The notes under the pieces were generated by a model. The model was not told where the DNA came from and ran no database searches. It was given only the letters and a program-made list of their open reading frames with translations. 64,000 bases of DNA from NCBI GenBank assembly GCA_947246685.1, contig CAMXSN010000006.1, forward strand, positions 3,898 to 67,897, written 5' to 3'. This DNA is from an uncultured Clostridia bacterium. Lineage in GTDB: Bacteria; Bacillota; Clostridia; Christensenellales; UBA3700. Positions within the stretch are counted from its first letter, which is position 1. Each line of letters begins with the position of its first letter. Made by a program: the position numbers and the translations under genes. Positions 10,073 to 62,290 of the stretch are shown here, in pieces.

Positions 10073-10093
10073 AAACACCTCCCTATATCCATA

Positions 10094-11437: not shown

Positions 11438-11491
11438 TTTACCACCCCCTTGATAATTATATAATAGCATGCTTATTTCTTTTTATCAAGT

Positions 11492-11523
11492 GTGAATTAT
11501 GTAGAATTATGTAGAATTATGTA
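11492..11523. repeat. 10-bp tandem repeat (gtRgaattat x3.2) in the peptidase promoter region
   Basis: gtgaattat gtagaattat gtagaattat gta read directly from the sequence. Confidence 0.9.
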
Positions 11524-11583
11524 CTTTTATACAATATATGCATAATTTTGGCTATTATGCAGTTTAGGTCAATATAAAATAAC

Positions 11584-11966
11584 TTATTTATAAAGCTCTA
11601 TGTTATCCACTGCGGACTTGAATAATCCGTCCATCACCTGCTCTATCTCTTCAATACTGCGCTCCTCTCCTATATCCTTATAAATTATGTCTATCTCTAA
11701 CTTGCTGCTCTTGAACCACCCGATCGGGACTTTTATCTGATAATACGACGTGTAGATTCTTTCTCCCGATTCATTCAACTTGGTCTTCATTTCCTCGCTG
11801 TAATACTTATATTTTCCGTATTTCTTGTCGTACTTATCTTTTTTTACTAAGGCATTTTTTGAGTTACCCGTTATACATACTTTTATCTCTCTTTCTTCCT
11901 GATTTTTATTTATCAAAGTATAATAATAGTACTGAACGTCTTCAACTCTCTCTGTAAAATCCGTAT
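11584..11966. repeat. 383-bp segmental duplication, copy 2 (partner 9386-9768)
   Basis: See copy 1. Confidence 0.9.
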
Positions 11967-12276
11967 CATCGTTCGTTTTGCGCCTATTAAACTCTATTCT
12001 TACATTGCCGAGCAATTCATAATCATCGCTAAATGCATCTTCCCAATAAATATCTTTAATTTCCAATTTGTTTTCATTAATAAAGTCAGACGAAATATAT
12101 GCTACGTCATTCTCCATCACTTTTTTCAAATTATCGTATTCAATGTAAGTATAATCCGGATTAATTCCCGACGTCAAACAAGCCCAAATTATTCCTAAAA
12201 TTATACCGGCTAGCGCTATCAATACTGCCAATGTAATAGCGATCCCTTTGATTGCCTTAACTGATACTCTATTCAT
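11584..12276 (-). CDS. membrane-anchored hypothetical protein, paralog B
   Basis: 230-aa ORF. The N-terminal ~45 aa and C-terminal 126 aa match paralog A. The central ~40 aa are unrelated in sequence and 2 aa longer. Confidence 0.7.
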   Translation of the reverse strand: MNRVSVKAIKGIAITLAVLIALAGIILGIIWACLTSGINPDYTYIEYDNLKKVMENDVAYISSDFINENKLEIKDIYWEDAFSDDYELLGNVRIEFNRRKTNDDTDFTERVEDVQYYYYTLINKNQEEREIKVCITGNSKNALVKKDKYDKKYGKYKYYSEEMKTKLNESGERIYTSYYQIKVPIGWFKSSKLEIDIIYKDIGEERSIEEIEQVMDGLFKSAVDNIELYK

Positions 12277-18357: not shown

Positions 18358-18564
18358 TCAGAAATCGCTCAAACCCAAAAGAAAATCTACAGATACGTTG
18401 AAAACCAACGCGATATCGCGTAATACCGACAGACTCGGTTCACCGGTGCCCAGCTCGTATCGCGAATAAGACTGTTGTTTTATGTTTAATTTATTCGCCG
18501 TCTCTTGCTGAGAATAACCTGCCTGAATTCTTAATTCCCTTAATCTTTGCGCAAATATTTCCAT
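18358..18564 (-). CDS. XRE-family helix-turn-helix transcriptional regulator (68 aa)
   Basis: LRELRIQAGYSQQETANKLNIKQQSYSRYELG is a canonical Cro/C1-type HTH. Confidence 0.85.
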   Translation of the reverse strand: MEIFAQRLRELRIQAGYSQQETANKLNIKQQSYSRYELGTGEPSLSVLRDIALVFNVSVDFLLGLSDF

Positions 18565-20382: not shown

Positions 20383-21537
20383 TCAATGCGTGTTGCGAAA
20401 ATTCTCGTAATCATCGAGCAACTCCGCGCTGATACTCGGCGGAATCTTGTTGAACGCTTTTTCAAACATATCCGCTCTGAGAGGGATAGGACTAGAGCTT
20501 CCGCTTTGCTGAATTTCTTCGAGAGCGCATCTGCAGGCTTCCTCCACTATTCCGCATATATCTGCGGCAGAATAATACGCCGTCGTGCGGATATTGCCCT
20601 TCTTATCTTGTTCCGCCGTGAACGTCTCGGTCATATCTACGATCTCTTCCACCGTGATATCTTCTAATTCTATACCGCTGAGTTTGCTCTCTATGATAGC
20701 TTTTTTCGCGCCGAAATCGGGAGGCGTGACGTGTATCAAATGAGAAAATCTCTTATATCTGAGATAAGCGGGATCTATCACGTCGGGACGGTTGGTCGCC
20801 GCGACCATTATTCTCTTGGAACCGTCCACGCCGAATCCGTTGATTCTCTGCAGAAGTTCGGTCGTAACGGCAGCCTTGTAATCTTTGGTATCCTGTGTAC
20901 GTTTGCTGAAAATAGATTCGCATTCGTCAACAAACAGTATCGCGCCGTCGGGACATGCGTCGATTTCTTCGAATATCTGTTTGACTGCCTGCTCGGATTC
21001 GCCGACATAGGACTTGAAGATATCGGCGGGCGTAACGATGAACAACGGTAATTTCATTGCGTTGGCGATAGCCTCGGCAAACATTGTCTTACCCGTACCG
21101 GGCGCGCCGTACATAAGCATACCCAGACCGCCTTCTATCTTGTAATATTCGAGTATCGACGGATTCTGCGCCATAAATATAAAACTTCTGACCAATGCTT
21201 TGACGTTGTCCAAACCCTTGACGTCGTCGAGAGTTGTATCGGGCACTTTGCTCTTGATGACCGAGCCGTAACCTGCCGCCGCGTCGCTGAGCTGCTTGTA
21301 AAACAACTTGTATTTCTCGCTCAGCAATCTGTCTGTGCTTCTCACGGAAAGCGTGCGCGCAATTTGCGCCGCCTGAGAATATTTGGCGCGCAATACGTTG
21401 CGTTCCTCGTCGGACAGATCTTTTTTATCCTTCCTGCCGTTTAGGACGGAACGTATCTCGTCTGTGACTTTGCGGAGCGAGTTTTCCAACTCTTCCACGC
21501 CGCTGTCTTCGGTATTTCTTTTTTTATCCGCTGCCAT
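20383..21537 (-). CDS. classical-clade AAA+ ATPase with helical N-domain (Vps4/katanin-like single cassette)
   Basis: Walker A GAPGTGKT, pore loop KSYVGES, Walker B ILFVDECE and sensor-1 VAATNRPD. SRH IDPAYLRYKRFSHLIHVTPPD has no Pro-Gly and so resembles the Vps4 RRRFE type. The ~120-aa charged helical N-terminus precedes the LDDVKGLDNVK linker. RBS GAGGAG. Confidence 0.85.
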   Translation of the reverse strand: MAADKKRNTEDSGVEELENSLRKVTDEIRSVLNGRKDKKDLSDEERNVLRAKYSQAAQIARTLSVRSTDRLLSEKYKLFYKQLSDAAAGYGSVIKSKVPDTTLDDVKGLDNVKALVRSFIFMAQNPSILEYYKIEGGLGMLMYGAPGTGKTMFAEAIANAMKLPLFIVTPADIFKSYVGESEQAVKQIFEEIDACPDGAILFVDECESIFSKRTQDTKDYKAAVTTELLQRINGFGVDGSKRIMVAATNRPDVIDPAYLRYKRFSHLIHVTPPDFGAKKAIIESKLSGIELEDITVEEIVDMTETFTAEQDKKGNIRTTAYYSAADICGIVEEACRCALEEIQQSGSSSPIPLRADMFEKAFNKIPPSISAELLDDYENFRNTH

Positions 21538-21547
21538 TGTCGTCTCC

Positions 21548-22267
21548 TCAGATTATGTCGTCTATATTGATATCCCCGTCGGAACCCTTGTCCGCGCCCG
21601 TATCGGGAGCCGCGGAAGGAGCGGCGGACGAATCTTCTGCAGTTTCCCCGTTCGCCTCTGCGCGGTATTTCGCAAGCTGCTTGGAAGCCTCGTTCTGATA
21701 GCCTGCCATGACGTCGTTGCTTTTCCCGTCCGATTTTGCCATTGACTTTTTGAGCTTTTTATCGAATCCGCTCATTGCCACCAACATAGCGTTGGCAATA
21801 TTGCCGTATCCGTTGACCATATCCATAATGGCTTTCATACGGTTACTGTTCATCTTGACGAATTTTTTGATCTTGCGTCTCTGTTTCATCCTGCCTCTTG
21901 CAGAATACTGCTTGTAATTGTCAAGGCTCATCATCTCGTCGATGAATTTGAACGTATCGTCCATTATGTTGATTGTCTGCGACAGCACCTGCATTGCCTC
22001 TTTCATGGAAAACATCATTCCCACGACGTTCTGCAAGCTGAAAGTAACTGTGTAAAACATCGTCAGCACTCTGGTGTTGAAATGATCGGCGCCGTATTGA
22101 CGCTCGCTCTCAACGACTTTGCGCGCCAGATTTTCCACGGATTTCTCCAATTCGGATTTCTTACCCTCTAAAATCTTACCGTCGAGTTTTCTGAGATTTT
22201 CTTTTTGCATTTCGCTGTATGGATTGGAGAGCCTTTCTCCTCTCTCTCTGTTTCTTTCTCTTGCCAT
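21548..22267 (-). CDS. 239-aa helical protein with basic N-terminus and acidic disordered C-tail ending DGDINIDDII (ESCRT-III/PspA-like architecture, unproven)
   Basis: RBS GGGAGAA. N-terminus MARERNRERGER, long predicted helices, then Ala/Pro/Asp-rich tail SSAAPSAAPDTGADKGSDGDINIDDII. No sequence motif I can assign to a family. Confidence 0.7.
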   Translation of the reverse strand: MARERNRERGERLSNPYSEMQKENLRKLDGKILEGKKSELEKSVENLARKVVESERQYGADHFNTRVLTMFYTVTFSLQNVVGMMFSMKEAMQVLSQTINIMDDTFKFIDEMMSLDNYKQYSARGRMKQRRKIKKFVKMNSNRMKAIMDMVNGYGNIANAMLVAMSGFDKKLKKSMAKSDGKSNDVMAGYQNEASKQLAKYRAEANGETAEDSSAAPSAAPDTGADKGSDGDINIDDII

Positions 22268-22282
22268 AATTTTTTCTCCCGA

Positions 22283-23797
22283 TTAAAACTGATTGTTGAT
22301 GATGTCATTTATCTGTATGTCGCCGTCCGCCTCTTCTAAATCTTCAGACTGCTCTTGCTTATCCGCCGCGTCTTCTTTGGGGGCGGAAGTCTTTCTTGCA
22401 AATTTACGGCGTCTTTCTTCCATTCTCTTTCTCATCTCTTCTTTTTCTTTTGCTCTGTCCTCGCTCTGCTTGTTTGCAGTTACGTATGTTTGCTCTTTCT
22501 CCATAAGTTTGTTGATAGTTGCAAACCGCTCGTCGGTCATAGCCATGTGTTTTGTCTGCAGAGCAACGTTTTCCATAATATTGTCATAATAACTTATAGC
22601 GAGCGTAATATCCGACTCGGACGCGCCGTAACTCAATATATCAAGAAACTGCCTGAAATCTATATATGCGAACATAGAATAAAACAAGTTGGGTTCTATC
22701 TGCTGATACATAGTGTAGATATGTTGCAATCTCTTGAATTTGGAGAGCAGTCTGCGCATAGCGAGCATATTATTGTTCATCATATTGATACTAGCCCTAT
22801 ATTGCTCTCTTTCCATCTCTCTGATTTCCATATCCTGTTCGAGCATGGTGATTTGAGTATCCGCTTCTTCTTCCATTATTTCGCCTTCGTCGAGAGCCGC
22901 TATTACGTCGGATATATTCTTCTGAATTTCCGCGATATCGGCGTTGATCTGTTTGACTTTCTCGTATGCGTCGTTCTGTACGCTGAACTGCTCTTCAAAT
23001 GATGCCAATCTTGCAAAGAACGCGTCGCCTTTTTCTTTGACGCTCGCAATCTTTGAGAATCCCGAGAATACGTCTTCCTGATATTTGACGATATCTTTAT
23101 CCTTTGCCTGATTTCTCTTATTGACCGCCTTGGTCAGTTCGCACCATTTGTCAGCCTCGTCCAGAGCCTGTCTGAGATGGTCGTTGACGGCGTCGAATAT
23201 CATATTCCTGCCTACGTAATCTCTCCACGCGAACAGACCGTAGGAGCTGTCGCCGAGCAAATTTGCGGCGGCGTCCGCAGCGTCCAACGACGAATTGTCA
23301 AACACGCCGTCAACTTTCTCTCTCAATTCTTTGAGCATATCTTTGGACGCGATAAGAATGCCTTTCTTGTATTCGCTCTTTTCCTCGTAAATCACGTTGT
23401 CTATTCCCATCATAGAATCGTCGATATATTTCAATACTTCTTTCTTGATGTCTGCCATATTCTTTTCTCCTTTTCCCAATTTTATCTTTTTGAAAATCTG
23501 TTCTTTTTTTTCTCTGTATCCGTCAAGTTTCAGCGCCGCGTTGTATTTTGAGAGCAGCGTAGCCATTTCCGTCAGCTCGAAAATAGCGTTTTTGAGATTG
23601 CCGTCGAATCCCTTGTTGATCCCTTCTCGCAAAAGCGACTCGATATCTTCTCTTATTTCGTCGGAAAAATCTTGACAGCGATTGCTGTCGTAACCGTTGT
23701 ATTCTATATCCTTAAACTTTCTTGCGTAACTTATTTTGTTGTCTTCGAGTATACCGACAAGCTTATCCAGCCTTATCAATTCTTCTCCTCCTCGCAT
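22283..23797 (-). CDS. 504-aa coiled-coil protein with acidic C-tail ending DGDIQINDIINNQF
   Basis: All-helical, charge-rich sequence. The likely true start is TTG 23779, preceded by GAGGAGGAG and overlapping the upstream TGA as TTGA. The ATG at 23797 is the track start. Confidence 0.7.
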   Translation of the reverse strand: MRGGEELIRLDKLVGILEDNKISYARKFKDIEYNGYDSNRCQDFSDEIREDIESLLREGINKGFDGNLKNAIFELTEMATLLSKYNAALKLDGYREKKEQIFKKIKLGKGEKNMADIKKEVLKYIDDSMMGIDNVIYEEKSEYKKGILIASKDMLKELREKVDGVFDNSSLDAADAAANLLGDSSYGLFAWRDYVGRNMIFDAVNDHLRQALDEADKWCELTKAVNKRNQAKDKDIVKYQEDVFSGFSKIASVKEKGDAFFARLASFEEQFSVQNDAYEKVKQINADIAEIQKNISDVIAALDEGEIMEEEADTQITMLEQDMEIREMEREQYRASINMMNNNMLAMRRLLSKFKRLQHIYTMYQQIEPNLFYSMFAYIDFRQFLDILSYGASESDITLAISYYDNIMENVALQTKHMAMTDERFATINKLMEKEQTYVTANKQSEDRAKEKEEMRKRMEERRRKFARKTSAPKEDAADKQEQSEDLEEADGDIQINDIINNQF

Positions 23798-24924
23798 ACG
23801 TCGGAGACGAATTTATCCGTCTCTTTTTTGGACGTTCTGCCTTTCTCCGAATATTTATAAAAATCGTCGTCGTAAAAAACGCACGAATTGTATCTGCCCG
23901 CTTTTATAAGCCGCTTAATATCCGCGTTGCCGTTGTCTTCCAAGCATTTGGCTATGCCGGCAATGGTTCTTTTTTTGAGATATTTATGTCCGCCGCGCGC
24001 ATTTACGAAACACATATAAACTCCGCTGTCGGGACAGTCGCTCACGTACTGCGCCACGGCGTTGGAATTCTTAAGCTCGTAAAATTTGCCGTCGATCTCT
24101 TTGTCGTCGTATGCTTTTGCCATTTTAAGACGCAGATCTCTGCCTATGCTTTCAAGCACGGAAAAGCCGTTGTCCTCCTCGGAAAACAGACGCACGCACT
24201 CTTCTTTTGAAAGTTTGAAAATGCCGAAAACAGGAGCGCGCTCCTCGTCCGTACAACTGCGCAATGTGGCAAAAGCCACGCTTGCCGCGTCCTCGTCCTC
24301 CGCCCGTTCGCCGTATAACAGATCAAATTTATCGTAATCTCCTCCGAGATCCGTTATCTTCTCTGCCAAAGCCGCGCGCAGTTCGTCAAGACTCTCATAT
24401 CCGTCGAATTGTCTCTTGACAGCGATCTCGCGCGGAACGTTTTTTAACATATCTATCAAATATCCTGCGCACTGCAGTTTGATATCCGTCAGTTCGTCGA
24501 CGTAACGGTCGTCTCCTTCGGGAGTGTGCACGCCTCTATGAACGTTGAAAAGCACGGCTTTGTAATAAAAATACGCCACGCGCCATCTCTCGGCGCTGCC
24601 CGTATTGAAATCCACGTAGCCCCTGTCATAGTAATACCCCATACGCATAAGCGCTGAAGGATGAAACATAAACGCCGCTTCATAACACAGATTGACCGCT
24701 TTATCGAGATATTTGAATCTCGTCCTCTTGTCTTCGTTGGAAGACGTGAGCCATTTGAAATAATATTCCTCGGAGCGAACGAACAGCTCTCTGTTGAGCG
24801 CATTGATCTCCAGCTCCGTGTCCGTATCGGGGAATACGTCCTTTTTGCAATGCGGACAGCACCACCTGCCGTCATACAGCTCGAGCGGTCTGTCTATATC
24901 TTGATTGCAATTTCCGCATTTCAT
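23776..24924 (-). CDS. 382-aa protein with N-terminal Zn-ribbon, one Sel1/TPR-like repeat and an unknown C-terminal domain
   Basis: RBS AAGGAG. MKCGNCNQ...CCPHCKK is a four-Cys ribbon. AAFMFHPSALMRMGYYYDRGYVDFNTGSAERWRVAYFYYKAV fits the Sel1 repeat pattern. Confidence 0.65.
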   Translation of the reverse strand: MKCGNCNQDIDRPLELYDGRWCCPHCKKDVFPDTDTELEINALNRELFVRSEEYYFKWLTSSNEDKRTRFKYLDKAVNLCYEAAFMFHPSALMRMGYYYDRGYVDFNTGSAERWRVAYFYYKAVLFNVHRGVHTPEGDDRYVDELTDIKLQCAGYLIDMLKNVPREIAVKRQFDGYESLDELRAALAEKITDLGGDYDKFDLLYGERAEDEDAASVAFATLRSCTDEERAPVFGIFKLSKEECVRLFSEEDNGFSVLESIGRDLRLKMAKAYDDKEIDGKFYELKNSNAVAQYVSDCPDSGVYMCFVNARGGHKYLKKRTIAGIAKCLEDNGNADIKRLIKAGRYNSCVFYDDDFYKYSEKGRTSKKETDKFVSDVCEEEKN

Positions 24925-24938: not shown

Positions 24939-27900
24939 TTAAGACGCCTTTCGCTCGATCTTGAAATCAATAAGCGTGTTTGTGAATTCATAATTAACCG
25001 ACGATACCGATGCCGAGACCGAATAATTGCCTACCGCGGTCGGCGCGCTCGCAAGCAGCCTGCCCTTGGAATCGTAATACGCATATCCGTTTAACTTGAT
25101 ATCCGAAGAATACTCTTTGCCGTCCTTGACTATCGTAGGAATGCCGGACGCGGTGTTCCACTGCAACGCGACGCTCTTTTTATTGATGATAAAATCGCAC
25201 GATTCATATTTAACGTCATAATTATTTATTACGCCGCTCTCTGGCAAGCTCAATGTGAGAGTGTATTTGCCGGCGTTTTTAGCGCTTATCGCACTGCCGC
25301 CGTATATAGGCGTCCCGAAATCTTCTTTCTTATCCTTTGTTGCAAGACCGCTCAACGTAAAGCCGAAATTGCCGCCGGTCTTGCCGTCGTAAGTCTTTGC
25401 CGACGCAACGGCTTTCGCCACAAGAGTACGTTTGGTTATCTCAAAATCCTTGGAGTCGTCGCCGATAAGTTGATAATTATCCGCATAAACGCCGCCCAAA
25501 GCGACCTGCGCCGTATACTTGCCGACGTTGAGTTGGGCGGAAGTATACTTCAGCGAAGAGATCATTGCCGTTTGCTGATTTGCAACCGCGTTTGTTATAG
25601 AGGACACTCTTGCGTTGTGATTCTGACCGTCGTAAACAAACTTGGAGTATTTCTCGTCCCATACAACTCGTACTTGGCGTTTAACTATCGAATAGGACGT
25701 TTCAACGGGCGCGTCAAGTCTGTAATTGCCATCAATAGGAAGATCCGCGCCGACGGTATAGCCGTCTCCGACGTTGACGTTGTTTTCATACCCGTAATAA
25801 TCTATCGGCACGGGCTTATCTCTGTCCAGCGCGCCTATTACCATCAAGTCGGGGTGCTGCGCGACGCCGGCGTAAACCAATTGAACGTTCTCCGCCCATT
25901 TTGCCGTCACGGTAGCCCTTTCGATGACGTAATCGCAGTTGCGATTGACGATCGTATAATTGCCGTTTGCGGTGCTGACTCTAGCGACGTAAGCGCCTGC
26001 GTCAATACCGGCGCCCGTCACGTCGGTTTGAATTTGACCGTCTTTTGCTATACCTGTTACGGTAGCGTTAGGCGCCTTGTAACTTCCGTCGTATACGAAT
26101 TGAGTATTAGACCACACCGCCTCAACTTCTATGGGAAGTATCTCGTAGGCAAAACTTCCCCCCGAGCCTATTTTGTAACAGTCTGCTCCGACCGTAAGTT
26201 CTATATTCGCCGTGTATCTGCCGGCATCGGAATTGATATGATTGGATATAGCGTATTCGATACCGTCGCCTTCAATCAACTGCGACGTATCGTAATCTAC
26301 GTAAACTTCTTTATTCTCGCCGTCGTATACGTCCTGATCAAAATCCGTCCAGACAAAATCCAAAGCCTTTTTATCAACCGACACGTCTATGACGAAAGTC
26401 TCTTGCGAACTGAGAGAGGTTTCTTCGGAAGTCGCTACGACTATGACGGAAAACGCTCCGCTCATGCTCGGAAGAACTCTGTCGTATATCATTTGAGCGC
26501 CGCTCTGCATAAACGCGTCTTTGCAATACCATGAATACGACAAATCATATCCCGACTTAGGCGCCTTTGCCGCCGCCGACAGAATCAACGTATCGCCGTA
26601 AACGTACTTCTCTGCGTTGGGCGTAATTTTGCCGTCATAAGGTTTTTTCAGCGTCCATTCCGGTTCGACTGCCGTCGCGTTGTAATATCCGTTCGCATTG
26701 CGTCTGAGGTAATCGGCGAGACTTGAAAATTCGTTGACGCCGCATTTCCATTTGATATCGAATCCATCTCTCGACAAATCTTTGAGGAGCTCGTCCGCGC
26801 GGCTGAGAGCCGTCAATCTGTAATTGCGTATACTGCCGCCTGCCTCTATCGTCTTGATCGAATCGTCAAAACTGAACTTGGTATCGTTGCCGTCGCCTAT
26901 CTCCACGGCGAAAACTCTCTCGAAATTAACTTGGGCTTTAACGACGTTGTTAACTATGCTTACGCCTTGCAGATTTCCTTGAGACGTGACTATTTCTTTG
27001 AGCATATAGCCGTTGTTTTGATAATTCCAATACAAATCTTCGTCGTCGGACTTATCAGAATATTTTACGTAATCGACTTTGTCGCCGCAGAACGACAAAT
27101 CAAACTTATTGCCTTTTTTGCCTATCCACGTGGGAATATAGCTGTTGTCGGTCAATATCAAATCGTCTGCGTTGTAGGCAAACGTAACGTACGCTTCGTC
27201 GTCGGCAAGCCCCGTAGGATAAACGTTGTTTGCCAATACCACGCTCTGTCTTTCCGAATATAATTCCTGTCTGTAACTGTCGATGAGCTTTTTGTTTACG
27301 CCCAATTTCAACGTGTCGTTCAACTCGCCTAAATAATATTTCTCGTCGTACAGACGCATCCTTTTTTCTCCGACTATTTCGACGCTGGCTATGGATGCGT
27401 CGGCAAACAGAGCGTAACTGACAGCCGTTACGTCCTTGCCGTTGAAAGTTAGAGGTACGCGCACCTTATCGCTTCTGCCCTCGAGCACTCCGTCGGCAAA
27501 ATACGAATCGCTGGCTTGGTCGTATTTGAAAGCCAAACTCCTGTATTCGTCTACGTAACCCTGTCCGAGAAAACCGTAATCCATTATATATACCGAATAC
27601 GCTCCCGATATCGCCACCGTTAACGCGCTCATGGCTATAACGGTCGCTTTGACCCACGGTTTTTTCTTGAGTATCGGATAAAGCGCCGCTATCGTAACGG
27701 CAACAAAACTGACCGCATGCGCAACTGCGAACAAAGCCGTCGCCGCGCCTGTCGAATAGGTCAGCTCCCCGCCGCTCATAACTCCCAACGTAGAACACGC
27801 GAATATAAACGTCAAAGCAAGATAAACTATCCACACCGTGAGCGAATATCTAAAACGGAAATTGGTAAACACTATGCCCACGATAAACAAAGCGTCAAAG

Positions 27901-28097
27901 ATCAGATTGAACACTGGCAGCACGATAAAACGCGCGTCGAAGCCCGATACAGCACACACTATCAGCAACACGAGGTCGCACACCGCCGCGGTAATGGAAG
28001 CGATGAGCAAAAATAGCTTGCTGCCGCCGAACCGCTTGCGGTTGGCGGAAGAATAATCTATATTTTCGCTGCCTGAATATAAGCCGTTTCTATTCAT
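24939..28097 (-). CDS. 1052-aa polytopic membrane protein with a large extracytoplasmic region ending in six MBG/YDG-type repeats
   Basis: RBS AAGGAGG and an ATGA overlap with the upstream gene. Five hydrophobic helices lie in aa ~29-170. The last 477 aa form six ~75-85-aa repeats, each with xVxW...(V/T)YDG...G(K/R)Y...NY...(F/Y)xIxK. Confidence 0.75.
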   Translation of the reverse strand: MNRNGLYSGSENIDYSSANRKRFGGSKLFLLIASITAAVCDLVLLIVCAVSGFDARFIVLPVFNLIFDALFIVGIVFTNFRFRYSLTVWIVYLALTFIFACSTLGVMSGGELTYSTGAATALFAVAHAVSFVAVTIAALYPILKKKPWVKATVIAMSALTVAISGAYSVYIMDYGFLGQGYVDEYRSLAFKYDQASDSYFADGVLEGRSDKVRVPLTFNGKDVTAVSYALFADASIASVEIVGEKRMRLYDEKYYLGELNDTLKLGVNKKLIDSYRQELYSERQSVVLANNVYPTGLADDEAYVTFAYNADDLILTDNSYIPTWIGKKGNKFDLSFCGDKVDYVKYSDKSDDEDLYWNYQNNGYMLKEIVTSQGNLQGVSIVNNVVKAQVNFERVFAVEIGDGNDTKFSFDDSIKTIEAGGSIRNYRLTALSRADELLKDLSRDGFDIKWKCGVNEFSSLADYLRRNANGYYNATAVEPEWTLKKPYDGKITPNAEKYVYGDTLILSAAAKAPKSGYDLSYSWYCKDAFMQSGAQMIYDRVLPSMSGAFSVIVVATSEETSLSSQETFVIDVSVDKKALDFVWTDFDQDVYDGENKEVYVDYDTSQLIEGDGIEYAISNHINSDAGRYTANIELTVGADCYKIGSGGSFAYEILPIEVEAVWSNTQFVYDGSYKAPNATVTGIAKDGQIQTDVTGAGIDAGAYVARVSTANGNYTIVNRNCDYVIERATVTAKWAENVQLVYAGVAQHPDLMVIGALDRDKPVPIDYYGYENNVNVGDGYTVGADLPIDGNYRLDAPVETSYSIVKRQVRVVWDEKYSKFVYDGQNHNARVSSITNAVANQQTAMISSLKYTSAQLNVGKYTAQVALGGVYADNYQLIGDDSKDFEITKRTLVAKAVASAKTYDGKTGGNFGFTLSGLATKDKKEDFGTPIYGGSAISAKNAGKYTLTLSLPESGVINNYDVKYESCDFIINKKSVALQWNTASGIPTIVKDGKEYSSDIKLNGYAYYDSKGRLLASAPTAVGNYSVSASVSSVNYEFTNTLIDFKIERKAS

Positions 28098-29752
28098 TTC
28101 GCTGCCTCCTTGTCGGAATTGCCCTTAGGCGCGCTGAGATAACCGCTGCTCTTGGCGGTATCTTTATTAAATATAAGCACAGATTCGTCGATCATAAACA
28201 TAATGCAATCTTCGTCTTCCTTGCAATATTTCTTTTTGTTGAGACTGCCTATTCTCTTGACCAAAGACAGCATTCCCGAATATTTGCGATATAGCTTATT
28301 ACCCTGTTTGTATTCCGCGTCGTCTATCGCGTCTATGCCCAATTTGGTTATTTTGCAGAAATCGCAAACGTAATCGGTCGAATTAGTTTCGGAGTAAAAC
28401 GATCTTCCGCAACATGAACAACGCGCAATTTTATCTTTAGGCACCAACGTCATTCTGTCTCTGACAAAGGCAAGATTCTTAGTATATCTAGCTATTCCGT
28501 CTTCGCAGACGTATACGACCTCGGGATGCGGACAGCGTTTGCATTTTCTCACTCCGCCGTCAAGCACGGCAGTATCGTCCTCGCAAACGTATTTGACGCA
28601 TCTGCCGGCAAGTCTCGCGTTCTCCGAGCAACTAATCCTGAGCAAGTGCGAAGTAAACGTTCCGCCGGATTTTATCTGTCTTATTATCTCTTCGCTAAGA
28701 CCGAGCCCTTGATGGGCAGGATTTATCAACGCTGTTTTCTCTACTCCGTCAAATACGTATTTGATCTTATTGAACTCGATAAGAGTAGATTTTTTGCGGC
28801 AGCTGTTGCAATAAAGACTCAACCTGCCTCCTATGCCCAATATCGCTTTGAGCGCGACCTTGCCGTCTAGTCTTACGTCGTAGTTATCTTTTCTCCACTG
28901 AAAATGCAGGACGTTGAGAAGAGACAGATTTAGGCACGTCAAATCAACGTTGTCGTTGGGTCCCTTCTCCACCATAATTCCCACGGCGTTCTCGTCTCTG
29001 CCGTCGGCTAACACGACGTAATCCGACAAATCCGCTCCTTGAGAATTACCGTCGGGATATACGAGTTTGTCCAAAGCATTGACGACGGTATCGGTAAGTT
29101 CCGCGCTGTTTTGCATAAGTTCATCTTCTTCCCTTTCCGAATCGAACGTGGAAAGATACGAGTTGATGACTTCGGCTTCTTCCTTGCCGTAAGGAAGTAT
29201 TTTTTTACCTACTTTTCTAAAAAACACTTTGCCTAGCACCGGCACCGCTTCGCCCGTTCCGTCGGTGATCTCCAACCTCAACGAGGCTCCGTAAACGTCT
29301 TCCAAACTCTCCGACTCGTCGCCGCGTCTAATATCGAATACGTAATTATCAAAGAAGCTCGATAGCACGTTGTTTATCAGCGCACAATGACTTTCTATCA
29401 ACTCGTTGGATATTACGTGCCTTCTGGGGCTGTATTCGACGATAGAATAATTGCGGTGAAAATGTTCCTTGACCGACTCGACGAACATAAGCCATTCGGC
29501 GGTGTCGTTTTTGACGCTCTCGCCTCTGAACATTCCAAACCATGACGCCCCGTTGTCGCCCATTACCGCATTGAACGAACCGTCGTCGCGCGCAGCCGCG
29601 CCGCGAGCCAATATAAATTCATGCGAGGGAGTAACTATCCTGTCTGCGTCCGCCGACAAAACCGATCCTTCTTTTATGCAATTTTCGCGGTACAATTTCA
29701 CCACGCTGTCAAACGTCTTGCCGTATTCGCTTCCAATATAAATCTTAGCCAT
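28094..29752 (-). CDS. 552-aa hypothetical protein with several CxxC Zn-ribbon-like pairs in the C-terminal half
   Basis: RBS GGAGGCGGT. CNSCRKK, CKRCPHPE and CSCCGRSF...CDFC. No other recognisable motif. Confidence 0.65.
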   Translation of the reverse strand: MAKIYIGSEYGKTFDSVVKLYRENCIKEGSVLSADADRIVTPSHEFILARGAAARDDGSFNAVMGDNGASWFGMFRGESVKNDTAEWLMFVESVKEHFHRNYSIVEYSPRRHVISNELIESHCALINNVLSSFFDNYVFDIRRGDESESLEDVYGASLRLEITDGTGEAVPVLGKVFFRKVGKKILPYGKEEAEVINSYLSTFDSEREEDELMQNSAELTDTVVNALDKLVYPDGNSQGADLSDYVVLADGRDENAVGIMVEKGPNDNVDLTCLNLSLLNVLHFQWRKDNYDVRLDGKVALKAILGIGGRLSLYCNSCRKKSTLIEFNKIKYVFDGVEKTALINPAHQGLGLSEEIIRQIKSGGTFTSHLLRISCSENARLAGRCVKYVCEDDTAVLDGGVRKCKRCPHPEVVYVCEDGIARYTKNLAFVRDRMTLVPKDKIARCSCCGRSFYSETNSTDYVCDFCKITKLGIDAIDDAEYKQGNKLYRKYSGMLSLVKRIGSLNKKKYCKEDEDCIMFMIDESVLIFNKDTAKSSGYLSAPKGNSDKEAAK

Positions 29753-29763: not shown

Positions 29764-32571
29764 TCAGTTATCCATGGACAGAATTTCTTTTATATCCGCC
29801 ACTTTGTCAGATTCTTTCCTTAGATTGTTGCAGAAAGACTCGCCGTTGTCGTGTTTGAAATCCCACGACGCCTTGATATACGCCGCAAACGTCCTTGCAA
29901 TCACGGGATATAGATAACCTCTTTCGTGATTTTGTTCGCACTTGGGACAACGCGCAATCCATTTCTCGTCAAACGATATTACGTGAGGTCTGGGAGAACA
30001 CTGCGAATAATCGCACGATCCGCACAGTTCAACGCTGGCTTTACCTACGCCGTACCTGCACTTCTGCGGACATGACGAACGGCTGGAACAGCTTGCGCAC
30101 AGACTCTTGAGTTCAACTGCGGAAATATTGCGATTGAGCGCATAAGCGTTGAGCACGCTGCACTTACCTTTGAGCTCGCTCTTGAATCTCTGACAGTGCA
30201 ACATCGAGCATATCTTGGAACAGTAATAATCTCTGTCGCCTTTATCTCCGCTGCTGCACAGCGATCCTCTGTCCGTATCCGTCTTGGATATACACGTGTA
30301 TCCGCCGTCGCCCACGCTTCTGCCGAATACCGAACCGCACGTGCCGCACTTGAATTCGTACACGTTTATCTCTTCCATAACCGTGCCTCGGGGATCATCC
30401 TGAATACACTGCCTTTTTGCTATACAGAAAAGATTGTTTTTCTTCTTGCGCGCATCGTATTCTTCTTTTGTATAAAGCGCCACTTTGCCGCAAGCGGGAC
30501 ATCTGAGCGCAACCATACGCTCGTTGTTACTGCCCGCGATAATCGTCGCGTCGCCGCTGTTGCTGGAAAGCAATCCTATACTGTTGAAGTACGCAAGAGC
30601 AAAACCTTCGAGCTTATTCATATCTGCAAACGAATATATCTTGACGTCGCTAGACTGTCCGAGACGGAATATTCTGCCTATTCTCTGATCCATAGACAAC
30701 GGATCGGGCGTGACCTGGAAGTTGATGATGATTCTGCTGTCCTGCAAGTTTACGCCCTCGGTAAACGACGGGTCGGTAACGAGTAACACCGCGTCTTCTT
30801 TGGATGTAAATTCGTCTATAACCTGTCTTTTGTTATCGTCTCTGCCTATTAATATCCTTGATGAAAATTCGCCGTCCGCGGCAAGTTCCGCACCGACTTT
30901 TTCCCATTGACGGTACCCTTTGCTTGTCTTGGGCAAGTCGTAATCGAAAAATACCAACGCTCTCTCGCCCGGATGTTCGCGCAGAACGGATTTCATCTCC
31001 TCGAATTTATACGCAAACGTATCTTTATCAGCCGCGGTGAAGATAAATTTGTTGTCGCATTCTCCCGCGGCTTTTCTTGAGAATTGCTCCCAATAAAATT
31101 TAAGCGAATTTTTCTTTTCAAAAACTTTTTCGTCCCCGAAAGATTTTAGTCCGCCCAAAATGTTGGGCACCAATATCTCAGCATATTTCTCCTGAGCGTC
31201 GCCGTGCAAGGAAATTTCCTGCGCATAGTCTTTCAGCGAATATGCTCTGCCGTCGACGTTGAGCGCTCGATTCCCGTTGATTACGTCCAGACTTGCTTCC
31301 ATGTCGCAACCGTCTCCGTATTTGAACCTTATTATCTTAGGAGCGTTTTCTTTGACAGGGAAGAAATATCTGTTGAAAACGAATCTGGTCTTGGTAAGTT
31401 CGTTGGGCTGACGGATCATTATGGTGCGCAACACGCCGTTGTGATAAGCGCTCGCTACTCTTTTGAGCACCTCGGAGCGTATTGGACCGCTGTCTTTAAG
31501 AAACTCTTCTCTTAGCAATTGTTTTTCGCCCTGAGTATAAGATTGAAATTTCTCGTATTCTCCCTTTGCTTTCAAAAAAGCTTCAAACTGAGCTGAGTAA
31601 TTGTTGTCTACTTCAAACTTCTTAACCGCGGTGATAAACTCTGCCACGGTATTCGCGCCTCTGCACACGTTCTGCTTGTAATAGAGTTTCTCTTTTCTGT
31701 ATTCGTCAGTGCGCTCTTTATCCTCTTTTATATCGAAATCGTCGGGATTGCCGCCCTTACATCTGATAAAATACCACAGTCTGAACATCTTTTCCAGATT
31801 GCCGGAATGAGGCGTAGCGGAAAGAAGCACGCAGTAAGTGCTGTTGGCTTTTTTCTTTGTCTGCATAAGCAAAGACAGTAGTTTCATAGCCTTTGCATAT
31901 CTGCCTTCTTCCGCGCACAGATGATGAGCCTCGTCGACGACAACGACGTCGAATAACACGTTTTTAATCGCGCTTTCTCGCCAGTTGACGAAATCCTCCG
32001 CCTTGACGATAAACGGCTTTGTCGGTCTGACGGTCGCTCCGTCCGACAAAGTCTCGCACTCGCCGAACTCCGCGTCGGCGACTCCGACAAGCACGCCTTT
32101 GCCCAGTCCGAATTTATTTTCAAGCACGTCTATCCAGCTGTCGTAAACCTGCGACGGCACGACCAACAACAGCGATTTCATCTTACCTCTGACGGCAAGC
32201 TCGCTCAGCACTGCGCACGCCTCAAAAGTTTTGCCGCTGCCCACAACGTCCGCGAGCAGACCGAAGCCGCGCAGCTCCTTGAGAAAATGCGTCGCCGCAA
32301 GTTGCTGATGTCTCAATATTACCTGATTGCTGTTGACGCTCCTATGCACATGCGATTTGGTTATTCCGTAATCTCCGCCGTCGGATTCGTATACTTCCGG
32401 CGCTATTTTCAACGCGGCGAAATCGTCGTATCTGTCCAGTTCTTCGGCGCAGTGGGTAAGCTCGGCTATCCGCGCGTCGAAGGGGCGTATCTCACCTGCA
32501 ATCTTCGACCTCTGAATATCCCTGTCAAAAGCTCCGTCCGTACATTTAAGAGTAAATCTTTTCTTTTTCAT
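29764..32571 (-). CDS. SNF2-family (RapA/HepA-like) helicase/translocase with ~200-aa Cys-rich C-terminal module
   Basis: Start ATG 32571, 5 nt after GGAGGGG; the track start 32589 is a TTG. Motifs LLADVVGSGKTFEA (I), VVVDEAHH (II), LLSATPHSG (III), TEGVNLQ and QRIGRIFRLGQ (VI). The tail holds about 21 Cys, including CPAC, CGTC, CASC, CGSC and CPKC. Confidence 0.85.
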   Translation of the reverse strand: MKKKRFTLKCTDGAFDRDIQRSKIAGEIRPFDARIAELTHCAEELDRYDDFAALKIAPEVYESDGGDYGITKSHVHRSVNSNQVILRHQQLAATHFLKELRGFGLLADVVGSGKTFEACAVLSELAVRGKMKSLLLVVPSQVYDSWIDVLENKFGLGKGVLVGVADAEFGECETLSDGATVRPTKPFIVKAEDFVNWRESAIKNVLFDVVVVDEAHHLCAEEGRYAKAMKLLSLLMQTKKKANSTYCVLLSATPHSGNLEKMFRLWYFIRCKGGNPDDFDIKEDKERTDEYRKEKLYYKQNVCRGANTVAEFITAVKKFEVDNNYSAQFEAFLKAKGEYEKFQSYTQGEKQLLREEFLKDSGPIRSEVLKRVASAYHNGVLRTIMIRQPNELTKTRFVFNRYFFPVKENAPKIIRFKYGDGCDMEASLDVINGNRALNVDGRAYSLKDYAQEISLHGDAQEKYAEILVPNILGGLKSFGDEKVFEKKNSLKFYWEQFSRKAAGECDNKFIFTAADKDTFAYKFEEMKSVLREHPGERALVFFDYDLPKTSKGYRQWEKVGAELAADGEFSSRILIGRDDNKRQVIDEFTSKEDAVLLVTDPSFTEGVNLQDSRIIINFQVTPDPLSMDQRIGRIFRLGQSSDVKIYSFADMNKLEGFALAYFNSIGLLSSNSGDATIIAGSNNERMVALRCPACGKVALYTKEEYDARKKKNNLFCIAKRQCIQDDPRGTVMEEINVYEFKCGTCGSVFGRSVGDGGYTCISKTDTDRGSLCSSGDKGDRDYYCSKICSMLHCQRFKSELKGKCSVLNAYALNRNISAVELKSLCASCSSRSSCPQKCRYGVGKASVELCGSCDYSQCSPRPHVISFDEKWIARCPKCEQNHERGYLYPVIARTFAAYIKASWDFKHDNGESFCNNLRKESDKVADIKEILSMDN

Positions 32572-32585
32572 TATCCCCTCCGCCG

Positions 32586-62088: not shown

Positions 62089-62261
62089 TTTCTCCCCCTG
62101 ACAGTATCGATTTTTGAGCTATGCGTCTTGATTATTCGCAAATATTTTCAACCGATACCCTATATTAATATATTATCACTTTATATCGGATAAAATCAAT
62201 ACTTTTATGATTTTAACAAGCTTTTTTGGGCAGAATAATGTCTCATACTACTAAAAAATAA

Positions 62262-62290
62262 TTGCATTAGGCAAAAATATAGTATATAAT
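62262..62290 (+). promoter_or_regulatory. sigma-A promoter of the retron transcript
   Basis: TTGCAT - 17 nt - TATAAT. The predicted +1 falls at ~62297-62298, exactly where the a1 repeat begins. Confidence 0.6.

What the first reader, a model, noticed from the sequence alone, without database searches (positions are those of the whole stretch)
21548..22330. Two adjacent coiled-coil proteins share a near-identical acidic C-terminal tail motif (DGDIxIxDII) next to the AAA+ gene
Seen: the 239-aa protein ends ...DTGADKGSDGDINIDDII-stop and the 504-aa protein ends ...DLEEADGDIQINDIINNQF-stop. Both motifs follow low-complexity acidic or Pro/Ala-rich linkers. The rest of the two proteins is not obviously similar, and no other protein in the operon carries the motif.

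Inference: a shared short linear motif at the extreme C-terminus of two helical proteins, encoded immediately upstream of an AAA+ ATPase, is the logic of ESCRT-III MIM tails docking on the Vps4 MIT domain. More generally it resembles degron or adaptor tags recognised by AAA+ N-domains. It does not match canonical MIM1 or MIM2 consensus sequences, so it would be a new recognition peptide.
Basis: partly seen in the sequence, partly recalled or inferred. Interest (0 to 1): 0.82.

Follow-up and report, generated by a model that had tools for sequence, protein, structure and literature searches.

The report
Conserved C-terminal docking tail beside AAA+ ATPase
Two neighbouring helical proteins end in the same short acidic-hydrophobic peptide, which is the conserved hallmark of an undescribed protein family always encoded next to one particular AAA+ ATPase in Clostridia, so it is probably a new handle by which that ATPase grips its clients, although no binding has been shown.

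Summary
The 239-aa protein ends ...GSDGDINIDDII. The 504-aa protein ends ...EADGDIQINDIINNQF. Both tails follow low-complexity linkers, and the 13-residue tail is the only similarity between the two families.

The tail marks a whole family. 97 of 135 representatives of the 239-aa family (20-30% identical to the window protein) end in Phi-x-[D/G]-[I/L/V](-Phi)-COOH after a Gly/Ser/Ala-rich linker. The background rate is 1.8%.

In all 17 lineages sampled, the next gene is the same classical AAA+ ATPase. It is 57-79% identical and has intact pore loops. Its N-terminal domain is predicted to be a basic three-helix bundle.

The pair sits in 7-9-gene systems of two architectures, one with an SNF2 helicase and one with a DUF4011/SF1 helicase-nuclease. 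Other components are a surface MBG-repeat protein (a TIR-LRR protein in one locus) and zinc-ribbon proteins. This looks like a conflict or defence system.

The ESCRT-III/Vps4 docking logic is plausible. One exposed N-domain residue, Q58, tracks the tail type. Homology to ESCRT-III, PspA or MIT was tested and not found. The tail of the 504-aa family is less constant, and no binding was measured or modelled.

The parts
21548..22267 (-). Gene for the 239-aa helical protein, the founding member here of an unannotated family. It has a basic helical core, a low-complexity linker and a C-terminal tail.
   Evidence: ORF. There were 34 close homologues and 160 representatives at E<=1e-3. No Pfam, NCBIfam or PADLOC family matched. 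The AF2 model is all-helical (H16-58, H63-113, H123-177, H185-210) at pLDDT 55.6. The core carries a net charge of +12 and the last 45 aa carry -6.
21551..21580 (-). C-terminal tail DGDINIDDII-COOH of the 239-aa protein. The core is Phi-x-D-I-Phi.
   Evidence: It is invariant as [DE]INIDDI[VI] in 15 syntenic loci. The family-wide motif is present in 97 of 135 representatives against a 1.8% background.
21581..21655 (-). Low-complexity, probably disordered linker (about residues 205-229, ANGETAEDSSAAPSAAPDTGADKGS). Its length and sequence vary among homologues.
   Evidence: Alignments A1 and A6 show gaps and no conservation here. pLDDT is below 50 for residues 208-232. Across the family the linker is 62% G/S/A/T/P.
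22283..23797 (-). Gene for the 504-aa helical protein, a second family unrelated to the 239-aa family apart from the tail.
   Evidence: hhalign of A1 against A2 aligns only the tail. Distant homologues occur in type-2 systems at E=1e-18 to 1e-10.
22298..22327 (-). Tail DGDIQINDII of the 504-aa protein, followed by NNQF (22286-22297) and the stop codon.
   Evidence: It is conserved as G[DE][IVL]QI[NTS]DI[IV] in the nearest clades. In the sister clade it is D[DE]LxQIIxTITKK. More distant systems carry other tails.
22328..22393 (-). Acidic and Pro/Ala-rich linker before the 504-aa tail (about residues 469-490).
   Evidence: Alignment A2 is unconserved and gapped here.
21253..21537 (-). N-terminal domain (about residues 1-95) of the AAA+ ATPase. 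It is a predicted three-helix bundle and the proposed receptor for the tails.
   Evidence: AF2 gives pLDDT 77.5 and pTM 0.66, with helices 10-32, 43-66 and 70-91. In Foldseek, MIT domains recur in the top 50 and the best TM-score is 2w2u_A (0.62/0.80, rmsd 2.4 A), but every E-value is above 0.1. The domain is conserved in all partner AAA+ proteins. Its net charge is +1 to +7. Q58 tracks the tail class.
20383..21252 (-). Classical-clade AAA+ ATPase module. My own reading of the aligned sequence identifies Walker A GAPGTGKT, Walker B VDECE, pore loop KSYVGES, sensor-1/SRH ATNRP...LRYKRFS and a C-terminal helix.
   Evidence: Pfam AAA 3.9e-32; Vps4_C 19.4 bits, below its 21.3-bit cut-off. NCBIfam CDC48 1.7e-43 and CdvC 1.2e-37. 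The best PDB matches are VAT and p97 D2. It is 57-79% identical to partner AAA+ proteins of distant systems. The motif assignments rest on established knowledge of AAA+ proteins, not on a tool output.
23776..24924 (-). Gene for a 382-aa protein with an N-terminal Cys4 zinc ribbon. It is conserved in both system architectures and is an alternative candidate receptor.
   Evidence: No family hit.
24939..28097 (-). Gene for a 1052-aa protein. By my reading of the sequence it has a hydrophobic, multi-spanning N-terminus; the rest carries MBG-type surface repeats. It is the fastest-evolving component.
   Evidence: Homologues are annotated MBG_2. It is only about 34% identical among loci where the other components are 50-80% identical. 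Transmembrane segments were not predicted with a tool.
28094..29752 (-). Gene for a 552-aa Cys-rich protein, found in type-1 systems only.
   Evidence: No family hit.
29764..32589 (-). Gene for a 941-aa SNF2-family helicase with a Cys-rich C-terminal region. In type-2 systems it is replaced by a DUF4011/SF1 helicase carrying an MTES_1575 nuclease domain.
   Evidence: Pfam SNF2-rel_dom and Helicase_C. PADLOC BrxH- and DrmD-like hits. The type-2 helicase is described.
32586..34538 (-). Gene for a 650-aa protein, possibly an Hsp70/actin-like ATPase on weak evidence. It is the first conserved gene of the type-1 operon.
   Evidence: Pfam HSP70 at E=0.008, below the cut-off. No PDB sequence match. 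A 659-aa product of similar size is called at the same position in L016; it runs over the end of the locus and its homology was not tested. It has no detectable homologue in type-2 systems.

Best explanation
The tail is a short linear docking motif at the very C-terminus. Its core is acidic-Phi-x-[D/G]-[I/L]-Phi-COOH, here DI(N/Q)I(D/N)DII, and it sits on a flexible low-complexity linker.

It defines an unannotated family of roughly 240-aa proteins with a basic helical core. These proteins are always encoded immediately upstream of one specific classical AAA+ ATPase.

The most likely mechanism has three steps:
1. The tail tethers its bearer to the basic three-helix-bundle N-domain of that ATPase, probably on the exposed face of helix 2.
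2. The hexamer's YVG pore loops then engage the adjacent disordered linker.
3. The ATPase unfolds or disassembles the helical protein or the complex it forms. In this lineage the 504-aa protein would be handled the same way.

This would switch the state of a larger multi-gene system, probably a conflict or defence system. That system contains a helicase (SNF2 or SF1-nuclease), zinc-ribbon proteins, and a surface MBG-repeat or TIR-LRR protein.

What is shown: the motif, its deep conservation, its position after a variable linker, the strict gene linkage with the AAA+ gene, the predicted N-domain fold and charge, and the apparently intact ATPase and pore motifs.

What is inferred: the physical tail-N-domain contact, threading, the disassembly function, and the biological role of the system.
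For: Conservation in close relatives: the tail is invariant in 15 syntenic loci even though the linker before it varies in length and sequence.

Family-wide conservation: 97 of 135 representatives, 20-30% identical overall, carry the motif in their last 9 residues. The background is 1.8% per 9-mer.

Shared tail: the 504-aa family shares only the tail. It keeps a Phi-x-[DG]-[IL]-Phi ending in several distant systems: TLDGIM in L023, KLEDLLV in L025, AQINDII in L016.

Gene linkage: the AAA+ gene lies immediately downstream in every lineage with sequence available. The one exception is L016/L017, where a tail-less paralogue sits between the two genes. All other partners can be swapped or lost.

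The AAA+ protein is the best-conserved component, at 57-79% identity. By my reading of the alignment, its Walker, pore-loop and arginine-finger motifs are intact.

N-domain: it is predicted as a three-helix bundle (pLDDT 77.5). MIT domains recur among the nearest structures.

Charge: the tails are acidic, while the N-domain carries +1 to +7.

Covariation: Q58 is Q in 10 of 11 lineages with canonical tails and non-Q in 6 of 6 lineages with other tails. It is the top-ranked of 270 alignment columns. By heptad reasoning it lies on an exposed face of helix 2. Two of the six non-canonical loci were looked up after the prediction was made, and both fit.
Against: The Q58 association (p=5.7e-4) does not survive correction for 270 columns, and phylogeny was not controlled.

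The N-domain has no significant sequence or structural match to any known peptide-binding domain. Three-helix bundles are a generic fold.

By my reading of the model and alignment, the N-domain joins the ATPase through only about 8-10 residues, unlike the long linker of Vps4.

Several 504-family members in type-2 systems end in a different motif, Phi-P-L-x-D-D-D-[KM]. The two families therefore need not share one receptor everywhere.

The 382-aa and 504-aa families also co-occur across both architectures. Gene linkage alone cannot exclude them as receptors.
Confidence: 0.5

Rival explanations
1. The tail docks on another conserved component rather than on the AAA+ protein. Candidates are the 382-aa zinc-ribbon and helical protein, the core of the 504-aa protein, the helicase, or the cytoplasmic part of the MBG or TIR-LRR protein. 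In this reading the tail is an assembly tag that builds the complex.
For: The 382-like and 504-like genes are present in both system architectures. C-terminal acidic-hydrophobic peptides binding helical-repeat clamps have a precedent in Hsp70/Hsp90 EEVD-TPR binding (established knowledge).
Against: Those partners are only 25-36% identical between the two architectures, whereas the tail core is nearly invariant. The MBG protein is replaced by a TIR-LRR protein in L110, and the helicase class is swapped. The AAA+ gene alone is strictly adjacent and highly conserved.
Confidence: 0.2
2. The acidic tail folds back onto the protein's own basic helical core and acts as an autoinhibitory latch, as in closed-state ESCRT-III. 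It may do this with or without a second role in AAA+ docking.
For: Charge is strongly asymmetric: the core carries +6 to +14 and the last 45 residues carry 0 to -8 in 14 lineages. The flexible linker is long enough to reach back.
Against: The same tail sits on the unrelated 504-aa protein, so a common external receptor is the simpler explanation. The AF2 model shows no confident docking of the tail onto the core; pLDDT of the tail is about 52. A tail-less paralogue exists in L016.
Confidence: 0.15
3. The 239-aa protein is a true but very divergent bacterial ESCRT-III/PspA homologue, and the AAA+ protein is a Vps4 orthologue with an MIT domain. The pair would then be a membrane-remodelling machine and the tail a new MIM class.
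For: Several features fit. The protein is about 240 aa. It has a basic core and an acidic C-terminus, five or six long helices in ESCRT-III-like order, and a terminal motif after a linker. The N-domain superposes best on the Sulfolobus Vps4 MIT domain (TM 0.62/0.80). A membrane protein is encoded in the operon.
Against: No Snf7 or PspA_IM30 hit appeared for any of 31 members at E<=10. PDB profile searches found nothing. Foldseek E-values were not significant. The AAA+ protein is closest to Cdc48/VAT D2. The helicase-nuclease and TIR context points to nucleic-acid conflict biology.
Confidence: 0.1
4. The tails are recognised by the possibly Hsp70-like 650-aa protein encoded at the head of the operon, by analogy with cpHsc70-1 binding the VIPP1 C-terminal tail.
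For: A weak HSP70 Pfam hit for the 650-aa protein (E=0.008). There is a published precedent for Hsp70 binding a C-terminal tail of a PspA-family protein (PMC12798727, listed).
Against: Type-2 systems keep the tail and the AAA+ gene. BLAST finds no homologue of the 650-aa protein in them; the similar-sized protein there is unrelated by BLAST. The Hsp70 assignment itself falls below the Pfam threshold, and there is no PDB sequence match.
Confidence: 0.04
5. The shared ending is a chance resemblance or a low-complexity artefact with no function.
For: The motif is short, and it sits in Asp/Ile-rich sequence after low-complexity regions.
Against: 72% of distant family members carry the motif against a 1.8% background. 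It stays invariant while the adjacent linkers drift. The two nucleotide sequences differ largely at synonymous sites.
Confidence: 0.01

Closest known systems
ESCRT-III MIM motifs docking on the Vps4/CdvC MIT domain
   Same: A helical protein of about 240 aa with a basic core and an acidic C-terminus. A short terminal motif follows a flexible linker. [quoted passage not shown] More than one client protein carries the motif.
   Different: No detectable homology to Snf7/PspA or MIT. The motif (Phi-x-D-I-Phi-COOH) matches neither the MIM1 nor the MIM2 consensus. The N-domain is joined to the ATPase by only about 8-10 residues. The ATPase is closest to Cdc48/VAT D2. The host is a bacterium (Clostridia) and the operon carries a helicase-nuclease.
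SspB C-terminal XB peptide tethering to the ClpX N-domain, and related adaptor-AAA+ tethers (established knowledge)
   Same: A short peptide at the extreme C-terminus, after a long disordered linker, docks on the N-domain of an AAA+ unfoldase and raises the local concentration of the client.
   Different: The motif is different (LRVVK against acidic DIxDI-Phi). The receptor fold is different (a zinc-binding domain against a three-helix bundle). There is no partner protease in the core system. Here the tail-bearing proteins are probably themselves the substrates.
ClpV N-domain recognising the VipB helix to disassemble contracted type VI secretion sheaths, and Mpa coiled coil recognising Pup (established knowledge)
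   Same: An AAA+ N-terminal helical domain recognises a short peptide on the subunits of an assembly that is to be dismantled.
   Different: The folds and motifs are unrelated. The motif here is C-terminal and acidic. No sheath or proteasome genes are present.
VIPP1 C-terminal tail bound by chloroplast Hsc70 (PMC12798727)
   Same: A disordered C-terminal tail of a helical, polymer-forming protein serves as the handle for an ATP-dependent disassembly chaperone.
   Different: The chaperone there is Hsp70. Here the strictly linked ATPase is an AAA+ protein, and the possibly Hsp70-like gene is dispensable across the family.
Helicase-based anti-phage systems in PADLOC (PDC-S37, Hhe, Mokosh MkoA/C, DISARM DrmD, BREX BrxH, IetA-type AAA+)
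   Same: The system's helicases hit these models: PDC-S37 at 3.7e-122 for the type-2 helicase, and BrxH/DrmD at about 1e-30 for the SNF2 protein. The AAA+ protein hits IetA at about 1e-31. One locus carries a TIR-LRR gene and lies next to type IV secretion genes.
   Different: No PADLOC model matches the 239, 504, 382, 552 or type-2 651-aa proteins. The overall gene set matches no described system. In Christensenellaceae the locus is inherited vertically at a fixed chromosomal site.

Membership tests
ESCRT-III / PspA / Vipp1 superfamily (239-aa protein) | Profile match to Snf7 or PspA_IM30 | tested here: not met
   No such hit for any of 31 members at E<=10. PDB profile searches returned only coiled-coil noise.
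ESCRT-III / PspA / Vipp1 superfamily (239-aa protein) | An alpha1-alpha2 hairpin followed by alpha3-alpha5 (the ESCRT-III fold) | tested here: inconclusive
   The AF2 model has long helices in a compatible order but a pLDDT of only 55.6. Foldseek gave no match with E<0.6; ESCRT-III chains appear only at E=4.8 (rank 12) and 7.7 (rank 36).
ESCRT-III / PspA / Vipp1 superfamily (239-aa protein) | Basic N-terminal core and acidic C-terminal region | tested here: met
   The core carries +6 to +14 and the last 45 residues carry 0 to -8 in 14 lineages.
ESCRT-III / PspA / Vipp1 superfamily (239-aa protein) | A C-terminal MIM matching the MIM1 ((D/E)xxLxxRLxxL(K/R)) or MIM2 (Pro-rich) consensus | tested here: not met
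   By direct reading, the tail is [DG]-Phi-x-[DG]-[IL]-Phi-COOH. The consensus sequences come from established knowledge.
ESCRT-III / PspA / Vipp1 superfamily (239-aa protein) | Polymerisation on, and remodelling of, membranes | not testable with these tools
   Requires in vitro reconstitution or electron microscopy.
Vps4 / CdvC (MIT-AAA ATPases) | A single classical AAA module with Walker A/B, an aromatic pore loop and SRH arginines | tested here: met
   Pfam AAA 3.9e-32. By my reading of the alignment, GAPGTGKT, VDECE, KSYVGES and LRYKRFS are invariant in 8-9 lineages.
Vps4 / CdvC (MIT-AAA ATPases) | An N-terminal MIT domain (profile level) | tested here: not met
   No MIT hit at E<=10 for residues 1-116. 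The PDB profile search found no MIT domain.
Vps4 / CdvC (MIT-AAA ATPases) | An N-terminal antiparallel three-helix bundle of about 80 residues (fold level) | tested here: inconclusive
   AF2 predicts three helices at pLDDT 77.5. Seven MIT entries appear in the Foldseek top 50, and the best TM-score is 2w2u_A (0.62/0.80). All E-values exceed 0.1, and BAG domains and designed bundles score equally well.
Vps4 / CdvC (MIT-AAA ATPases) | Closest relatives are Vps4 or the meiotic clade; a Vps4_C helix is present | tested here: inconclusive
   The best PDB and NCBIfam matches are VAT/p97 D2 and CDC48, with CdvC close behind (1.2e-37). Vps4_C scores 19.4 bits against a 21.3-bit cut-off. No phylogeny was built.
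Vps4 / CdvC (MIT-AAA ATPases) | A beta-domain insertion in the small ATPase subdomain (Vta1 binding) | not tested
Described anti-phage defence systems (PADLOC-DB 2.0) | The full gene set matches a described system | tested here: not met
   Only the helicases and the generic AAA+ domain hit models. The 239, 504, 382, 552, 1052, 650 and type-2 651-aa proteins have no hit.
Described anti-phage defence systems (PADLOC-DB 2.0) | Protection against phage or plasmid | not testable with these tools
   Requires heterologous expression and challenge assays.

The most novel reading that the evidence does not exclude
The 239-aa family and its dedicated AAA+ ATPase form a previously undescribed bacterial client-disassemblase pair that works like ESCRT-III/Vps4. 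Its recognition code is a new terminal peptide, acidic-Phi-x-D-I-Phi-COOH, read by helix 2 of a three-helix N-domain. The pair acts as the conserved regulatory core of a new, modular, multi-gene conflict or defence system of Clostridia, including the human-gut Christensenellaceae. In that system the helicase (SNF2 or SF1-nuclease) and the sensor or effector (surface MBG protein or TIR-LRR protein) can be exchanged.
Probability: 0.3. Interest if true: 0.8.

Novelty: new variant of a known kind. Interest (0 to 1): 0.62.

Why it matters
If the tail is the handle by which this AAA+ ATPase recognises its clients, it adds a new motif-receptor pair to the few known AAA+ N-domain recognition codes (MIM-MIT, XB-ClpX, Pup-Mpa, VipB-ClpV). 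It would be a bacterial pair in which homology to the archaeal and eukaryotic ones was tested and not found.

It also gives an entry point into a system of seven to nine genes that no database annotates. That system spans at least 160 sequence clusters of Clostridia, including common gut Christensenellaceae. It combines a helicase or nuclease with a surface or TIR protein.

The motif is eight residues long and nearly invariant. Peptide binding, point mutants and tail swaps are therefore cheap and decisive experiments.

Tried and rejected

2. A word-index homologue search with the AAA+ N-domain returned only 4 fragments. The N-domain model therefore rests on a 5-sequence alignment.

3. The metagenome scan with the AAA+ alignment used generic Walker-A patterns. 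Only 6 of the 80 loci were true orthologues.

4. Foldseek with the low-confidence 239-aa model gave nothing meaningful.

5. Profile and sequence searches of PDB gave no useful match: the 239-aa family, the N-domain, the 650-aa protein and the 382-aa protein.

6. Literature searches found no description of this module. Terms tried were Christensenellaceae+ESCRT, Vps4/MIT/PspA in bacteria, PDC-S37, DUF4011/AAA/MBG, and Vps4-like bacterial operon. The PSP survey (PMC11237479) reports other bacterial Vps4-like contexts, namely TPR-6TM partners and double-AAA proteins with PspA, but not this one.

7. I considered the resemblance of the tail to the AAA+ lid segment DITVEEIV as a mechanistic clue and rejected it. 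From established knowledge, that segment looks like the canonical 'DVDLEELA' element of classical AAA lids.

8. I considered the SNF2 C-terminus ADIKEILSMDN as a third tail and rejected it. It fits only a very loose pattern and has no linker before it.


Full report
**1. The observation**

A tightly packed run of genes lies on the minus strand:
- 650 aa (32586-34538)
- SNF2 helicase, 941 aa (29764-32589)
- 552 aa (28094-29752)
- a 1052-aa MBG-repeat protein with a hydrophobic N-terminus (24939-28097)
- 382 aa (23776-24924)
- 504 aa (22283-23797)
- 239 aa (21548-22267)
- AAA+ ATPase, 384 aa (20383-21537)

The 239-aa protein ends ...DTGADKGSDGDINIDDII*. The 504-aa protein ends ...DLEEADGDIQINDIINNQF*.

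The strict pattern D[ILV]x[ILV]xD[ILV][ILV] occurs in only 3 of 295 six-frame ORFs of the window. Two of those are these C-termini.

By my own count, the two 30-nt motif segments are 22/30 identical. Most differences are at third codon positions, so the identity is maintained at the protein level.

A profile-profile comparison of the two families aligns nothing except the 13-residue tail.

**2. Conservation in close relatives**

The 239-aa protein has 34 close homologues, all from Clostridia or Christensenellaceae metagenome-assembled genomes. In the alignment the tail [DE]INIDDI[VI] is nearly invariant. The 20-40 residues before it are gapped and unconserved.

Fourteen species-level genomes carry the same gene order, 941-552-1052-382-504-239-AAA. 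In most of them the same transporter lies downstream. The locus is therefore vertically inherited in this clade.

In all 15 loci the 239-aa tail is identical except for the last residue.

The 504-aa tail falls into two forms. The window's clade and its neighbours have G[DE][IVL]QI[NTS]DI[IV]. The sister clade has D[DE]LxQIIxTITKK, which keeps only the Phi-x-x-I-I core.

**3. The tail is a family hallmark**

An exhaustive profile search with the 239-aa family found 160 representatives of 50%-identity clusters at E<=1e-3. Nearly all are 220-265 aa long. They are 20-30% identical to the window protein.

97 of 135 full-length representatives have Phi-x-[DG]-[ILV](-Phi) within the last nine residues. 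The background is 1.8% per nine-residue window of the protein cores. Typical endings are SSIDDIL, DISDIL, GIDDIVG, DIDDIT, GVDGLM and GIEGL. Most of the remaining members have related acidic-hydrophobic endings.

The preceding 30 residues are 62% Gly/Ser/Ala/Thr/Pro.

A motif that survives while the rest of the protein has diverged to the twilight zone, and that always sits at the free end of a flexible linker, behaves like a functional short linear motif.

**4. What travels with it**

I looked up or scanned the genomic surroundings of distant members. In every lineage with downstream sequence the next gene is an AAA+ ATPase of the same subfamily, with the same N-terminal region. This covers the window, L001-L014, L016-L021, L023-L032 and L108-L111. 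The one variation is L016/L017, where a tail-less 188-aa paralogue sits between the two genes.

This ATPase is the best-conserved component, at 57-79% identity. In the same lineages the 239-aa family is 22-30% identical and the 504-aa family about 25%.

The rest of the system is modular.
- Type 1 (window, L016, L023, L028): SNF2 helicase, 552-aa protein, MBG protein, 382, 504, 239, AAA. In the window the 650-aa gene precedes these, and a 659-aa product is called at the same position in L016.
- Type 2 (L025-L027, L029-L031; partial in L018, L021, L032 and L110): MBG protein, 382-like, 504-like, an unrelated protein of about 650 aa, a 1500-aa DUF4011/SF1 helicase with an MTES_1575 nuclease-like domain, then 239-like and AAA.

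The type-2 helicase matches the PADLOC candidate defence protein PDC-S37 (3.7e-122), as well as Hhe and Mokosh models. The SNF2 protein matches BrxH and DrmD models.

In L110 a DZR-TIR-LRR protein occupies the first position instead of the MBG protein. That locus lies beside a ClpP-like gene and a type IV secretion coupling protein.

No PADLOC, Pfam or NCBIfam model covers the 239, 504, 382 or 552-aa proteins. No paper in the searchable library describes the module.

The context therefore looks like an undescribed conflict or defence system, not a membrane-scission operon. This assignment is inference.

**5. The proposed receptor**

The AAA+ protein belongs to the classical clade: Pfam AAA 3.9e-32, NCBIfam CDC48 1.7e-43 and CdvC 1.2e-37. 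Its best PDB matches are VAT and p97 D2.

By my reading of the alignment, Walker A and B, the YVG pore loop and the SRH arginines are invariant across lineages. It should be an active, threading-competent hexamer; this is inference from established AAA+ knowledge.

Residues 1-95 are predicted as an antiparallel three-helix bundle, with helices 10-32, 43-66 and 70-91, at pLDDT 77.5 and pTM 0.66. The supporting alignment has only five sequences.

A Foldseek search of PDB gave no significant hit; every E-value was above 0.1. MIT domains do recur in the top 50: Vps4 (4niq, 2v6x), calpain-7, katanin p60 and MITD1. The best superposition of all is the Sulfolobus Vps4 MIT domain, 2w2u_A, with TM 0.62/0.80 and rmsd 2.4 A. 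BAG domains and designed bundles also appear.

At the sequence level there is no MIT signal.

The N-domain carries a net charge of +1 to +7. The 239-aa cores carry +6 to +14 and their last 45 residues carry 0 to -8.

**6. A covariation lead**

I aligned 17 AAA+ partners and split them by tail type. Eleven have Phi-x-[DG]-[IL]-Phi tails. Six have other endings: VDGLIP, VEGL, IEGL, NIFPHSN, NEDW and GWDAN.

Of 270 alignment columns, the one most associated with tail class is position 58. By heptad reasoning it lies on an exposed face of N-domain helix 2. It is Q in 10 of 11 canonical lineages (H in the other). In the six non-canonical lineages the aligned residue is R, A, R, A, G or M.

Eleven of the 15 top-ranked columns lie in residues 1-101.

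L110 and L111 were looked up after this pattern had been noticed, and both fit.

The caveats are substantial. The Fisher p-value of 5.7e-4 does not survive correction for 270 columns. The lineages are not independent. The classification of tails was partly post hoc. I treat this as a pointer to helix 2, not as proof.

**7. Tests of homology to ESCRT-III and Vps4**

None of 31 members of the 239-aa family hits Snf7 or PspA_IM30, even at E<=10.

hhalign of the broad family profile against E. coli PspA and human CHMP4B gave probabilities below 1%.

PDB profile searches gave only coiled-coil noise.

The AF2 model is all-helical, with helices of ESCRT-III-like number and order, but pLDDT is 55.6 and Foldseek found nothing significant.

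Membership of ESCRT-III is thus not supported, although the functional logic could still be the same. That logic is a basic helical client, an acidic tail on a linker, and an adjacent AAA+ protein with a three-helix N-domain.

**8. Limits of the shared-tail idea**

In several type-2 systems the 504-like protein ends differently: IVPLGDDDK (L029), YVAFSDDDK (L031), VVIPLNNNDN (L027) and KPLSDDDM (P0050). This appears to be a second conserved ending, hydrophobic-Pro-Leu followed by an acidic run.

Other distant systems do keep a 239-type ending on the 504-like protein: TLDGIM in L023 and KLEDLLV in L025.

The near-identity of the two tails is therefore a feature of the window's lineage and some others. 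It is not universal. The 239-aa tail is the constant element.

**9. Verdict**

The interpretation that the tail is a new recognition peptide for the neighbouring AAA+ N-domain is the best available explanation; I put it at about 0.5.

The specific ESCRT-III/MIT homology is not supported, and the biological setting is probably a helicase-based conflict system.

Rival receptors are the 382-aa protein, the protein's own basic core, and the possibly Hsp70-like protein. They are less likely for the reasons given under the rival explanations, but they are not excluded.

No physical interaction has been modelled or measured.

Noticed in passing
L029:1249-2733, L031:1308-2798, L027:1461-2951; protein P0050: In several type-2 systems the 504-like protein ends in a different conserved tail: hydrophobic-Pro/Ala-Leu/Phe-x-[DN][DN]D-[KNM]. 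Examples are IVPLGDDDK, YVAFSDDDK, VVIPLNNNDN and KPLSDDDM. This may be a second docking motif with its own receptor.
   Followed up: partly
L016:12305-12871 (also L017:3824-4390): One lineage has an extra 188-aa paralogue of the 239-aa family inserted between the 239-like gene and the AAA+ gene. It lacks both the linker and the tail (it ends ...KCSADTASA).
   Followed up: partly
L110:1-16954: In one type-2 locus the surface MBG protein is replaced by a protein with double zinc ribbon, TIR and LRR domains. The system is followed by a ClpP-like protease gene and type IV secretion coupling-protein and FtsK-gamma genes. This suggests carriage on a conjugative element and an immune role.
   Followed up: partly
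window 24939-28097: The 1052-aa MBG-repeat protein is only about 34% identical among loci where its operon neighbours are 50-80% identical, and its length ranges from 988 to 1441 aa or more. Such rapid divergence is typical of surface-exposed proteins or proteins under conflict-driven selection.
   Followed up: no
window 20383-21537 (AAA+ residues about 290-300): The AAA+ lid contains DITVEEIV (DITIDDIV in L001), which resembles the tails. From established knowledge, it looks like the canonical 'DVDLEELA' lid element of classical AAA proteins, so the likeness is probably coincidental.
   Followed up: partly
window 29764-29810 (C-terminus of the SNF2 protein): The SNF2 helicase ends ...KVADIKEILSMDN. 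This segment is conserved in all 15 loci and fits only a loose acidic-Phi-x-x-Phi-Phi pattern. There is no low-complexity linker before it.
   Followed up: no
L025:3471-5393, L026:3452-5434, L027:2956-4911, L029:2733-4643, L030:2918-4795, L031:2810-4702, L110:3404-5359: The type-2 protein of about 650 aa is unrelated by BLAST to the window's 650-aa protein. All copies end in a conserved W/L-x-x-[IL]-[DEQ]-[LF]-x-COOH, for example WNTIDLQ, WHKIDFE and SSIDFE. There is no linker before it, so it is probably a structural element.
   Followed up: no
window 20830-20850 (AAA+ residues about 230-236): By my reading, the inter-subunit signalling motif, usually DGF in classical AAA proteins, is NGF or NGL (RINGFG) throughout this AAA+ subfamily.
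   Followed up: no
window 10001-12000 and 62001-64000: Two stretches of the window have much lower G+C (0.347 and 0.269) than the window average of about 0.46.
   Followed up: no
window 18358-18564: A 68-aa helix-turn-helix (XRE-like) ORF lies downstream of the transporter gene. It recurs near the system in several Christensenellaceae loci (46-76% identity). Whether it regulates the operon is unknown.
   Followed up: no
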